From IMG/VR virus record IMGVR_UViG_3300049215_000772, positions 64,001 through 128,000 of that record: a DNA stretch of 64,000 nucleotides. One strand, 5' to 3'. The notes below the pieces were generated by a model. That model worked only from the letters and a program-made list of their open reading frames with translations. It did not search any database and was not told the DNA's origin. This DNA comes from a virus. Taxonomy: Duplodnaviria; Heunggongvirae; Uroviricota; Caudoviricetes. Positions 60,672 through 60,770 of the stretch are shown here, one piece after another. Made by a program: the position numbers and the translations under genes. Every line of letters begins with the position of its first letter. Within the stretch, counting starts at the first letter, position 1.

Positions 60672-60770
60672 CGCAGTTGAGTAACATCGCTGCCTGGACG
60701 AATCCTGGGGACACCGGGTCAGGCCGGAAGGAGCAGCCCACTCCCCTGCGTTCAACACTTTTCAACTGCG
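60672..60770 (+). ncRNA. ffs: small SRP (4.5S) RNA homologue
   Basis: ACACC-GGGT-CAGG-CC-GGAA-GG-AGCA-GCCC helix-8 signature; GGGGA/TCCCC; 10-bp closing CGCAGTTGAG/TTCAACTGCG; 99 nt. Confidence 0.75.

What the first reader, a model, noticed from the sequence alone, without database searches (positions are those of the whole stretch)
60672..60770. Phage-encoded SRP RNA with a one-base-pair-short apical stem
Seen: the helix-8 signature CAGG...GGAA...AGCA with an asymmetric loop and a long closing helix. The stem under the GGAA tetraloop is CC/GG (2 bp) versus UCC/GGA (3 bp) in E. coli 4.5S. Established: the internal loops bind the Ffh M domain and the tetraloop docks FtsY. I do not recall SRP RNA as a recognised phage gene. 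Inference: it either supplements membrane-protein targeting (the phage encodes many membrane proteins) or sequesters Ffh in an incompetent complex.
Basis: partly seen in the sequence, partly recalled or inferred. Interest (0 to 1): 0.9.

Follow-up and report, generated by a model that had tools for sequence, protein, structure and literature searches.

The report
Phage RNA copying the SRP core
Among the tRNA genes of a giant phage lies a roughly 90-base, two-hairpin RNA whose second hairpin is a near-exact copy of the protein-binding core of the cell's signal-recognition-particle RNA; it is conserved in related phages, so the phage probably taps into or interferes with the host machine that sends proteins to the membrane.

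Summary
The helix-8 signature is real. Window 60712-60741 carries the asymmetric loop, symmetric loop and GGAA tetraloop, and 27 nt are identical to genuine cellular SRP RNAs. It is not a canonical SRP RNA: Rfam scores are sub-threshold (RF00169 24.1 bits against 40; RF01857 21.7 against 96.5). The 2-bp apical stem is a normal variant of true SRP RNAs in Gemmatales, Trueperaceae, Holophagales, Treponema and Micrarchaeota, so it says nothing about incompetence. Four soil-metagenome contigs from a syntenic phage lineage carry the same element, and a fifth, unrelated contig carries a similar one. The alignment gives two adjacent hairpins. H1 is 60661-60703. The helix-8 domain is 60705-60748, with an almost invariant apex (28-29 of 30) and covarying stems (10 doubly changed pairs against 2.7 expected). 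Closer relatives carry a tRNA-like gene in this slot instead. Other huge phages carry full-length, above-threshold SRP RNA genes in tRNA arrays, and one carries a 74-nt minimal form. Best reading: a phage small RNA that binds host Ffh but lacks the canonical distal GTPase-activating end.

The parts
60661..60703 (+). H1: a 17-pair hairpin with two one-base bulges (G60667, C60672) and one unpaired base (U60678) near the loop, and an apical loop GUAACA. Its 5' strand carries the family-invariant GUGCCGG (60665-60671).
   Evidence: RNAalifold consensus on 6 sequences. 6 of 17 pairs change on both sides, including three swaps at the base between the window and the L151-155 group. It also appears in each single-sequence minimum-free-energy fold.
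60704..60704 (+). One-base junction between H1 and the helix-8 domain.
   Evidence: Alignment A2, column 46.
60705..60748 (+). SRP helix-8 (domain IV) hairpin. It comprises a lower stem of 7 positions (one U.U in the window), asymmetric loop CACC/AC, GGGU/GCCC, symmetric loop CAGG/AGCA, a 2-bp CC/GG stem and the GGAA tetraloop at 60726-60729.
   Evidence: Local Rfam matches. 27-nt identity to cellular SRP RNAs. The apex is 28-29 of 30 identical across the family, while the lower stem is only 4-6 of 14 identical yet stays paired.
60672..60680 (+). It lies inside the 5' strand of H1.
   Evidence: Sequence. It is mutually exclusive with H1.
60762..60770 (+). 3' arm of that helix, in the 5' UTR of the next gene, abutting the RBS GAGGA (60770-60774). 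The complementarity extends to 60657-60680 against 60762-60788 and covers the AUG at 60784.
   Evidence: Duplex of -23.6 kcal/mol, reached by 6 of 1000 shuffles. The full-context fold prefers this form, -43.1 against -40.6 kcal/mol. It is not conserved in L151-155, where the equivalent 3' sequence belongs to the next RNA.
60784..61260 (+). Downstream gene, a DUF6847 protein of 158 aa. It serves as the synteny anchor and is not obviously part of the RNA's function.
   Evidence: Pfam PF20935, 28.8 bits. Homologues of 58-79% identity in related contigs.
60398..60650 (+). Upstream members of the same non-coding-RNA array: a tRNA (60398-60470), a 96-nt tRNA-shaped gene (60474-60569) and a YrlB-like hairpin (60571-60650). 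Promoter-like sites lie at 60072-60188, and there is no + strand terminator before the gene.

Best explanation
The element is a phage-encoded small RNA of about 88 nt (60661-60748). It is transcribed within a tRNA and non-coding-RNA array and consists of two adjacent hairpins.

The 3' hairpin is a faithful copy of SRP RNA domain IV (helix 8), of the naturally occurring type whose apex is 2 nt shorter. It keeps the symmetric loop, the ACC of the asymmetric loop and the GGAA tetraloop. I infer that it binds the host's Ffh M domain and can still dock FtsY through the tetraloop.

It lacks the canonical helix 5, whose 3'-strand GUGC distal site activates the GTPases. The resulting particle would therefore be a truncated SRP. 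I commit to this reading: the RNA competes with host 4.5S RNA for Ffh and re-tunes or damps co-translational membrane targeting during infection, rather than simply topping up SRP RNA.

Shown: homology to helix 8, conservation, covariation, the two-hairpin architecture and its cassette-like distribution.
Inferred: Ffh binding, processing to a free RNA, and the direction of the effect.
For: - The helix-8 motif is intact, with 27 nt identical to true SRP RNAs, and it gives local Rfam SRP hits.
- The same element occurs in L151, L152, L154 and L155. L155 is syntenic with window 51.3-56.5 kb at 30-52% amino-acid identity.
- The apex is 28-29 of 30 identical, while the lower stem is 4-6 of 14 identical but stays paired. 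Ten pairs change on both sides, against 2.7 +/- 1.4 in shuffles (0 of 500) and 1-4 in slid controls.
- In L151-155 the unit is bounded by a tRNA-like 3' end upstream and a separate structured RNA starting 8 nt downstream, which fits a free, processed RNA.
- Independent minimal forms exist with the same layout of a short hairpin followed by helix 8. L140 has a 74-nt form exactly filling a tRNA-tRNA spacer, 38.2 bits. L153 is another.
- Full-length SRP RNAs sit in tRNA arrays of huge phages without any phage Ffh, so using host Ffh is the expected mode.
- G000 itself has no Ffh.
- The roles of the loops, tetraloop and distal site are established (PMC4091067, PMC5454536).
- GUG[CG] lies 26-27 nt after the tetraloop in 69 of 132 real SRP RNAs and is absent from the window's 3' strand.
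Against: - There is no direct evidence of transcription, processing or Ffh binding.
- Rfam scores are sub-threshold.
- The closest relatives lack the element and carry a tRNA-like gene in the slot: G001 and L159, L161 and L162, at 58-77% identity in the neighbouring protein. The element is therefore dispensable.
- In the window, thermodynamics favour an alternative pairing of the H1 5' strand with the downstream RBS and AUG, so a cis role cannot be excluded.
- The direction of the effect (interference or minimal substitute) is not constrained by any data here.
- The host is unknown. There are only weak hints to Gemmatales.
Confidence: 0.55

Rival explanations
1. It is a canonical, fully functional 4.5S-type SRP RNA: one long hairpin, 60672-60770, closed by the 9-bp helix. 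It supplements host SRP RNA.
For: The 9-bp perfect inverted repeat and the 99-nt length are in the right range. Other huge phages do carry canonical SRP RNAs.
Against: RF00169 scores 24.1 bits against 40. The interior would be a 15/8-nt loop with no GUGC on the 3' strand. The closing helix is absent from all relatives, and its 5' arm is used by the covariation-supported H1. Its 3' arm is the conserved 5' UTR of the DUF6847 gene.
Confidence: 0.05
2. It is a minimal but working SRP RNA substitute. Helix 8 alone, with H1 as a stabilising or processing hairpin, suffices to keep Ffh active when host RNA synthesis is shut off.
For: The context is the same as that of the canonical phage SRP RNAs. All Ffh and FtsY determinants of helix 8 are kept. 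Three independent minimal forms exist.
Against: The distal site is needed for GTPase activation and cargo hand-over in bacteria (PMC5454536), and it is missing from its canonical place. Host 4.5S RNA is a stable RNA, so the need for a supplement is unclear (my own knowledge).
Confidence: 0.2
3. It is a circularly permuted, complete SRP RNA. H1 stacks coaxially under helix 8 and replaces helix 5. Its 5' strand has the polarity of the canonical 3' strand and carries GUGCCGG with a bulged G as the distal GTPase-activating site.
For: GUGCCGG is invariant in the five family members. It lies about 24 nt from the tetraloop along the nicked strand, against 26-27 nt in real SRP RNAs. Under an HMM of 123 real SRP RNAs, the permuted order scores 3-5 bits above shuffled flanks for L151, L152, L154 and L155, with 0-2 of 100 shuffles as high.
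Against: The window's own sequence shows no such gain (26 of 100 shuffles as high), nor does L153. The H1 hairpins of L153 and L140 have no GUGC. The four supporting sequences are close relatives, so they are not independent. The local pairing around the motif differs from that of E. coli (my own knowledge of the 4.5S structure). The H1 5' end also resembles the start of the tRNA-like gene that fills the slot in relatives.
Confidence: 0.1
4. It is a cis-acting leader of the DUF6847 mRNA. The H1 5' strand alternately pairs within H1 or with the RBS and AUG, so the element is a translational switch, and the SRP-like hairpin is a protein-binding or purely structural module.
For: Complementarity of 60657-60680 with 60762-60788 gives -23.6 kcal/mol, reached by 6 of 1000 shuffles. 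The closed form is the full-context minimum-free-energy fold. There is no terminator between the element and the gene. L153 also has the hairpin 13 nt upstream of an RBS.
Against: In L151-155 the element is followed by other RNA genes, not by an ORF. The complementarity is specific to the window. A switch does not explain why the SRP loops are invariant.
Confidence: 0.07
5. It is an attP site, or a recombination scar, holding a fragment of the host ffs gene, as in phage phiEf11, which integrates into ffs through a 27-nt core.
For: ffs is a documented attB (PMC12540744). There is a 27-nt identity block to cellular SRP RNAs. IMG/VR labels the record a provirus.
Against: The identity block is the apex, not the 3' end of ffs. 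The flanks are self-complementary and covary across phages, which indicates selection at the RNA level. G000 has no tyrosine integrase, and the only recombinase is a 248-aa small serine recombinase 7 kb away. The element sits inside an RNA-gene array.
Confidence: 0.02
6. It is a chance resemblance.
For: Across all Rfam families the E-value would be about 0.6 for the 64-kb window (scaled). The fold z-score is -0.59.
Against: 27-nt identity to real SRP RNAs, recurrence in five or more independent assemblies at a syntenic site, and covariation.
Confidence: 0.01

Closest known systems
Bacterial small SRP RNA (4.5S RNA, ffs; Rfam RF00169)
   Same: The helix-8 domain has the symmetric loop CAGG/AGCA, ACC in the asymmetric loop and the GGAA tetraloop. 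Its size is about 90-100 nt. It would use Ffh supplied in trans.
   Different: There is no continuous helix 5 joining the 5' and 3' ends and no GUGC on the 3' strand. A separate 5' hairpin, H1, takes their place. It scores 24.1 bits against the gathering score of 40.
SRP RNAs with the 2-nt-shorter apex, described as an 'AA loop' in Gemmata obscuriglobus and Truepera radiovictrix (PMC4091067); here found in Gemmatales, Trueperaceae, Holophagales, Treponema and Micrarchaeota
   Same: The apex string is identical, with up to 27 nt in common. These are true SRP RNAs at 43-59 bits for RF00169 and 100.8 bits for RF01854.
   Different: They keep the full helix 5 and the distal GUG[CG] motif, and they are cellular, single-copy essential genes.
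Full-length SRP RNA genes inside huge-phage records
   Same: They lie in tRNA arrays of very large phages that lack ffh.
   Different: They are canonical single hairpins above threshold (57.7-58.7 bits), and the phages are unrelated to this one. I found no publication describing them.
S domain of archaeal and eukaryotic SRP RNA (helix 6 hairpin immediately 5' of helix 8)
   Same: The order is the same: a hairpin, then helix 8. The best Rfam hit is to the archaeal model.
   Different: The hit covers helix 8 only. H1 has no GNAR tetraloop, and no helix-6 match was reported. No SRP19 partner is known in bacteria (my own knowledge).
Phage-borne RNA mimics in tRNA arrays (tRNA-like and Y-RNA-like RNAs; PMC4201824)
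   Same: It shares an array with tRNA-shaped genes that lack anticodon loops and with a YrlB-like hairpin.
   Different: It mimics SRP RNA rather than tRNA or Y RNA.
phiEf11 attP core inside ffs (PMC12540744)
   Same: A phage carries a 27-nt stretch identical to host SRP RNA.
   Different: There the stretch is the 3' part of ffs next to an integrase. Here it is the apex, inside a self-folding, covarying RNA with no integrase nearby.

Membership tests
Bacteria_small_SRP (RF00169) | Covariance-model score at or above the curated gathering score (40 bits) | tested here: not met
   24.1 bits, E 6.4e-4. Nothing is found at gathering thresholds. Real examples score 43-78 bits.
Bacteria_small_SRP (RF00169) | Helix-8 symmetric loop (5' AGG / 3' AGCA) flanked by Watson-Crick pairs | tested here: met
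   60720-23 / 60732-35, identical to cellular SRP RNAs and invariant in the family.
Bacteria_small_SRP (RF00169) | Asymmetric loop with ACC on the 5' side and a short 3' side | tested here: met
   CACC / AC at 60712-15 / 60740-41. Two relatives vary at one position: ACG in L155 and AGC in L153.
Bacteria_small_SRP (RF00169) | Apical GNRA tetraloop | tested here: met
   GGAA at 60726-29, closed by a 2-bp stem. The same apex occurs in true SRP RNAs (PMC4091067).
Bacteria_small_SRP (RF00169) | A single extended hairpin in which the 5' and 3' ends pair (helix 5) | tested here: not met
   The comparative structure is two hairpins. The window-only 9-bp closure conflicts with H1 and is not conserved.
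Bacteria_small_SRP (RF00169) | Distal GUGC-type motif on the 3' strand about 26-27 nt after the tetraloop | tested here: not met
   Absent from 60730-60770. Present at offset 26-27 in 69 of 132 real SRP RNAs. A GUGCCGG on the H1 5' strand is a possible permuted equivalent, but the result is inconclusive.
Bacteria_small_SRP (RF00169) | Binds Ffh and stimulates Ffh-FtsY assembly and GTPase activity | not testable with these tools
   This needs binding and GTPase assays.
Archaea_SRP (RF01857) | Gathering score of 96.5 bits, with an Alu domain and helices 5, 6 and 8 | tested here: not met
   A 21.7-bit local match to model positions 186-226 (helix 8) only.
Phage attP within ffs | An identity block with host ffs reaching the gene's 3' part, next to an integrase | tested here: not met
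   The block is the apex. There is no tyrosine integrase, and a small serine recombinase lies 7 kb away.
New family: phage two-hairpin SRP-like RNA (model R1) | An H1 hairpin, a 1-nt junction and a helix-8 domain, in a phage RNA-gene array | tested here: met
   The window scores 102.5 bits against R1, by construction. The structure is supported by covariation. Members are the window, L151, L152, L154 and L155, with L153 and L140 as looser analogues.

The most novel reading that the evidence does not exclude
Very large phages carry a previously undescribed class of SRP-RNA genes in their tRNA arrays, ranging from canonical to minimal two-hairpin forms. The form in this window is a circularly permuted SRP RNA. 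H1 stacks under helix 8 and presents a bulged-G GUGCCGG distal site. With host Ffh, the phage RNA would then assemble a complete but phage-specified SRP that redirects co-translational targeting during infection.
Probability: 0.12. Interest if true: 0.9.

Novelty: new variant of a known kind. Interest (0 to 1): 0.72.

Why it matters
SRP RNA is one of the few universal non-coding RNAs, and it is regarded as a cellular housekeeping gene. This work finds a conserved, covarying phage RNA that keeps exactly the Ffh- and FtsY-contacting nucleotides but discards the canonical helix 5. It also finds full-length SRP RNA genes in unrelated huge phages. Together these suggest that membrane-protein targeting is a process phages manipulate at the RNA level, alongside translation (tRNAs, tmRNA).

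The minimal forms are natural 'deletion mutants' of SRP RNA. They make a mechanistic question directly testable: what does an Ffh particle do in vivo when it has the tetraloop but not the distal GTPase-activating site?

The work also shows that Rfam gathering thresholds miss such derived forms.

Tried and rejected
- GenBank phages: no match to the region or to the canonical phage SRP RNAs.
- IMG/VR: no exact matches to the 22-nt apex or to the H1 block. The 17-nt core gave only two chance hits.
- Phage-encoded partners: no Ffh M domain or SRP54 GTPase in G000, and no Ffh M domain in eight other SRP-bearing or related phage records.
- Ro60/TROVE, as a partner for the Y-RNA-like neighbour: none in G000.
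- Host identification failed:
  - The ligase is about 30% identical to every candidate lineage.
  - The IDO atlas hits are uninformative.
  - A DNA search of 121 Gemmatales genomes found only tRNA-Met (up to 92% identity) and an NT5C homologue (67-72% nucleotide, 62% amino-acid identity) in 4 genomes. The Holophagales order gave 1 weak hit and the Deinococcales order none, from samples of 41 genomes each. This is too weak to call.
- A 92%-identical aldehyde-dehydrogenase contig does not reach the RNA locus.
- The window's own protein could not be traced to named records.
- Model R1 found no further copies in G000, G001, G006, or loci L003-L008 and L159-L162.
- The Pfam capsid model found nothing in any huge-phage record. 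The Pfam terminase model was just under its cut-off, and this was resolved with PHROGs.
- Literature searches for a phage-encoded SRP RNA found none.
A sequence-only HMM was used instead.

Full report
WHAT THE WINDOW IS. The window is bases 64,001-128,000 of a 134-kb IMG/VR virus record, labelled 'provirus' and estimated 27% complete. The record encodes a terminase large-subunit fragment (phrog_5989, E 1.5e-26). The window carries auxiliary genes: NAD-dependent ligase, IDO, aldehyde dehydrogenase, a TPP enzyme and NT5C. Its nearest IMG/VR relative is a 340-kb contig, with 62% identity in the ligase and 57-58% in DUF6847, in the same gene order. The window's own DUF6847 protein is recorded on contigs up to 673 kb, so this is a very large phage and the 'provirus' label is doubtful.

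THE OBSERVATION. Rfam finds no SRP family at gathering thresholds. With relaxed thresholds the archaeal SRP model matches helix 8 only (21.7 bits against 96.5), and the bacterial small SRP model gives 24.1 bits against 40. The 121-nt region folds no better than shuffles (z -0.59). An SRP-like single hairpin is 3.8 kcal/mol worse than the minimum-free-energy fold, and its helix-8 pairs have only about 0.25 probability. Real SRP RNAs, cellular or phage-borne, fold as unbranched hairpins.

THE SHORT STEM IS NOT A DEFECT. These include Gemmataceae and other Gemmatales, other Planctomycetota, Trueperaceae, Holophagales, Treponema and many Micrarchaeota. Sampled examples are true SRP RNAs above threshold: RF00169 at 43-59 bits, and RF01854 at 100.8 bits with the same one-pair deletion visible in the alignment. 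A review had already noted a smaller apical loop in Gemmata obscuriglobus and Truepera radiovictrix (PMC4091067). The window shares 27 consecutive bases with a Gemmataceae SRP RNA and with Micrarchaeota SRP RNAs, but its flanks differ.

RELATIVES AND THE REAL STRUCTURE. I ran a metagenome scan for the apex followed by a non-cellular 3' base. It returned four soil contigs (L151, L152, L154, L155) that share the apex and also the 5' block with the invariant GUGCCGG. L155 is syntenic with window 51.3-56.5 kb at 30-52% amino-acid identity. RNAalifold on these sequences plus a looser analogue (L153) gives two adjacent hairpins, H1 (window 60661-60703) and the helix-8 domain (60705-60748), joined by one base. 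Ten of 30 pairs change on both sides, against 2.7 +/- 1.4 in shuffles (0 of 500) and 1-4 in slid controls. Three of those swaps lie at the base of H1, between the window and the soil group. The apex is 28-29 of 30 identical, whereas the lower stem is only 4-6 of 14 identical yet stays paired. This is the signature of a protein-binding loop held on a structural scaffold. In the soil contigs the unit starts just after the 3' end of a tRNA-shaped gene, and a separate structured RNA of about 170 nt begins 8 nt after it. The two hairpins are therefore the whole unit.

Its 5' arm lies in the H1 5' strand. Its 3' arm lies in the 5' UTR that the DUF6847 gene also has in relatives lacking the element. 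It is not conserved. In this window, however, the complementarity extends further: 60657-60680 pairs with 60762-60788, covering the RBS and the AUG, at -23.6 kcal/mol, reached by 6 of 1000 shuffles. This closed form is the full-context minimum-free-energy fold, -43.1 against -40.6 kcal/mol. An alternative conformer that couples the RNA to translation of the next gene is possible but unproven.

DISTRIBUTION. The element is single-copy in the record. It is absent from the 340-kb relative and from three closer relatives (74-77% DUF6847 identity). Those relatives keep the same order (tRNA, tRNA-like gene, YrlB-like hairpin) but fill the slot with a tRNA-shaped gene whose anticodon arm ends in a tetraloop. 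It is therefore an exchangeable cassette in an RNA-gene array, not a core gene.

PHAGE SRP RNAS IN GENERAL. The standard 3-bp apex occurs in 17 IMG/VR contigs. Full-length RF00169 matches of 57.7-58.7 bits lie deep inside records of 497, 372 and 290 kb, next to tRNAs. These phages are unrelated to this one, and none encodes an Ffh M domain. Another contig (L140) has a 74-nt element that exactly fills a tRNA-tRNA spacer: a 7-bp hairpin followed by a helix-8 domain, at 38.2 bits. L153, an AT-rich contig, has a 12-bp hairpin plus helix 8, 13 nt upstream of the RBS of a signal-peptide ORF. I found no paper describing phage-encoded SRP RNA. The only phage-ffs link found was phiEf11 integration into ffs (PMC12540744).

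MECHANISM. The established background is as follows. The two loops of helix 8 bind the SRP54/Ffh M domain. The tetraloop tethers FtsY and accelerates complex assembly. [quoted passage not shown] The phage RNA keeps the first two modules exactly. It lacks the third in its canonical place: real SRP RNAs have GUG[CG] 26-27 nt after the tetraloop in 69 of 132 cases, and the window's 3' strand has none. The most economical inference is an RNA that loads onto host Ffh and makes a particle able to meet FtsY but poorly able to complete the cycle. That would be a competitor or re-tuner of host SRP. A minimal working substitute is the main alternative.

THE PERMUTED-SRP IDEA. A more novel possibility is that H1 stacks under helix 8 and acts as a permuted helix 5. 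Its 5' strand has the polarity of the canonical 3' strand and carries the invariant GU[G]CCGG about 24 nt from the tetraloop. Under an HMM of real SRP RNAs, the permuted order gains 3-5 bits over shuffled flanks in the four soil sequences, but nothing in the window itself or in L153. The other minimal forms lack the motif. I rate this at about 0.1.

REJECTED READINGS. An attP reading is unlikely. The identity block is the apex, the flanks covary as RNA, and only a small serine recombinase lies 7 kb away. Chance is excluded by recurrence and covariation.

LIMITS. There are no expression, processing or binding data. There are only five close family members, four of them near-identical in H1. The host is unresolved, with weak hints to Gemmatales from tRNA-Met and an NT5C homologue. 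The E-values of model R1 are rough.

VERDICT. The core of the finding, an SRP-RNA-like gene in a phage, stands and is strengthened by comparative evidence. The specific anatomy (a single hairpin with a closing helix) and the argument that the short stem marks a decoy do not stand.

Noticed in passing
window 60474-60569; L002 2411-2966; L155 9902-9996 and 10256-10358; the slot before the DUF6847 gene in L159, L161 and L162: These are tRNA-shaped genes with an acceptor stem and T arm but with long inserts, or with an anticodon arm capped by a tetraloop, so they have no usable anticodon. ARAGORN calls the window copy 'tRNA-???'. There are several per phage. They could be decoys or scaffolds rather than decoding tRNAs.
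   Followed up: partly
window 60571-60650 (also L002 2340-2410, L159, L161, L162): A conserved hairpin carries AAUGC, GGAUUACA and UAUUUGU blocks and gives weak Rfam hits to the Y-RNA-like families: YrlB at 15 bits, and YrlA at 21 bits over 60423-60521. No Ro60/TROVE gene is present in the 134-kb record.
   Followed up: partly
IMG/VR records behind L132 (497 kb, SRP at 349767-349859), L135 (372 kb, 73744-73836) and L136 (290 kb, 183334-183429): Full-length bacterial-type SRP RNA genes, above the Rfam threshold, sit in tRNA arrays deep inside huge-phage contigs that lack ffh. I found no publication describing them.
   Followed up: partly
L140 617-690 (IMGVR_UViG_3300035698_028977): A 74-nt minimal SRP-like RNA (a 7-bp hairpin plus helix 8 with the 3-bp stem) exactly fills the spacer between two tRNA genes. 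It scores 38.2 bits for RF00169, just under the threshold.
   Followed up: partly
L153 3930-4010 and ORF 4024-4446 (SDBT01027740.1; same sequence in L149): In an AT-rich contig, an SRP helix-8 hairpin ends 13 nt before the RBS of a 140-aa ORF with a clear N-terminal signal peptide. A short flanking complementarity (AAUUUAAC/GUUAAUU) could close a three-way junction.
   Followed up: no
L151 about 1320-1500, and the equivalent stretches of L152, L154 and L155: Directly after the SRP-like unit lies a further conserved, multi-branched RNA of about 170 nt and unknown kind. L152 has a 50-nt insertion in it.
   Followed up: no
window 7140-8288, 16260-17891, 21203-22705, 46979-49099, 58402-59016: The window holds several auxiliary metabolic genes: indoleamine 2,3-dioxygenase-like, a TPP-dependent enzyme, aldehyde dehydrogenase, NAD-dependent DNA ligase and a 5'-nucleotidase (NT5C). 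The NT5C has 62%-identical homologues in four Gemmatales genomes.
   Followed up: partly
whole record (G000): The window's DUF6847 protein is recorded on contigs up to 673 kb, while IMG/VR holds only a 134-kb 'provirus' slice rated 27% complete. The true genome may exceed 600 kb, and the provirus call may be an artefact.
   Followed up: no
G000:C1:132026-132442 (4 kb beyond the window end): A 248-aa small serine recombinase (Resolvase domain, 72.8 bits) is the only recombinase found in the record.
   Followed up: no
window 60622-61452, minus strand: A 276-aa open frame runs antisense across the RNA element and the DUF6847 gene. It is probably spurious, because the + strand gene has Pfam support.
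   Followed up: no
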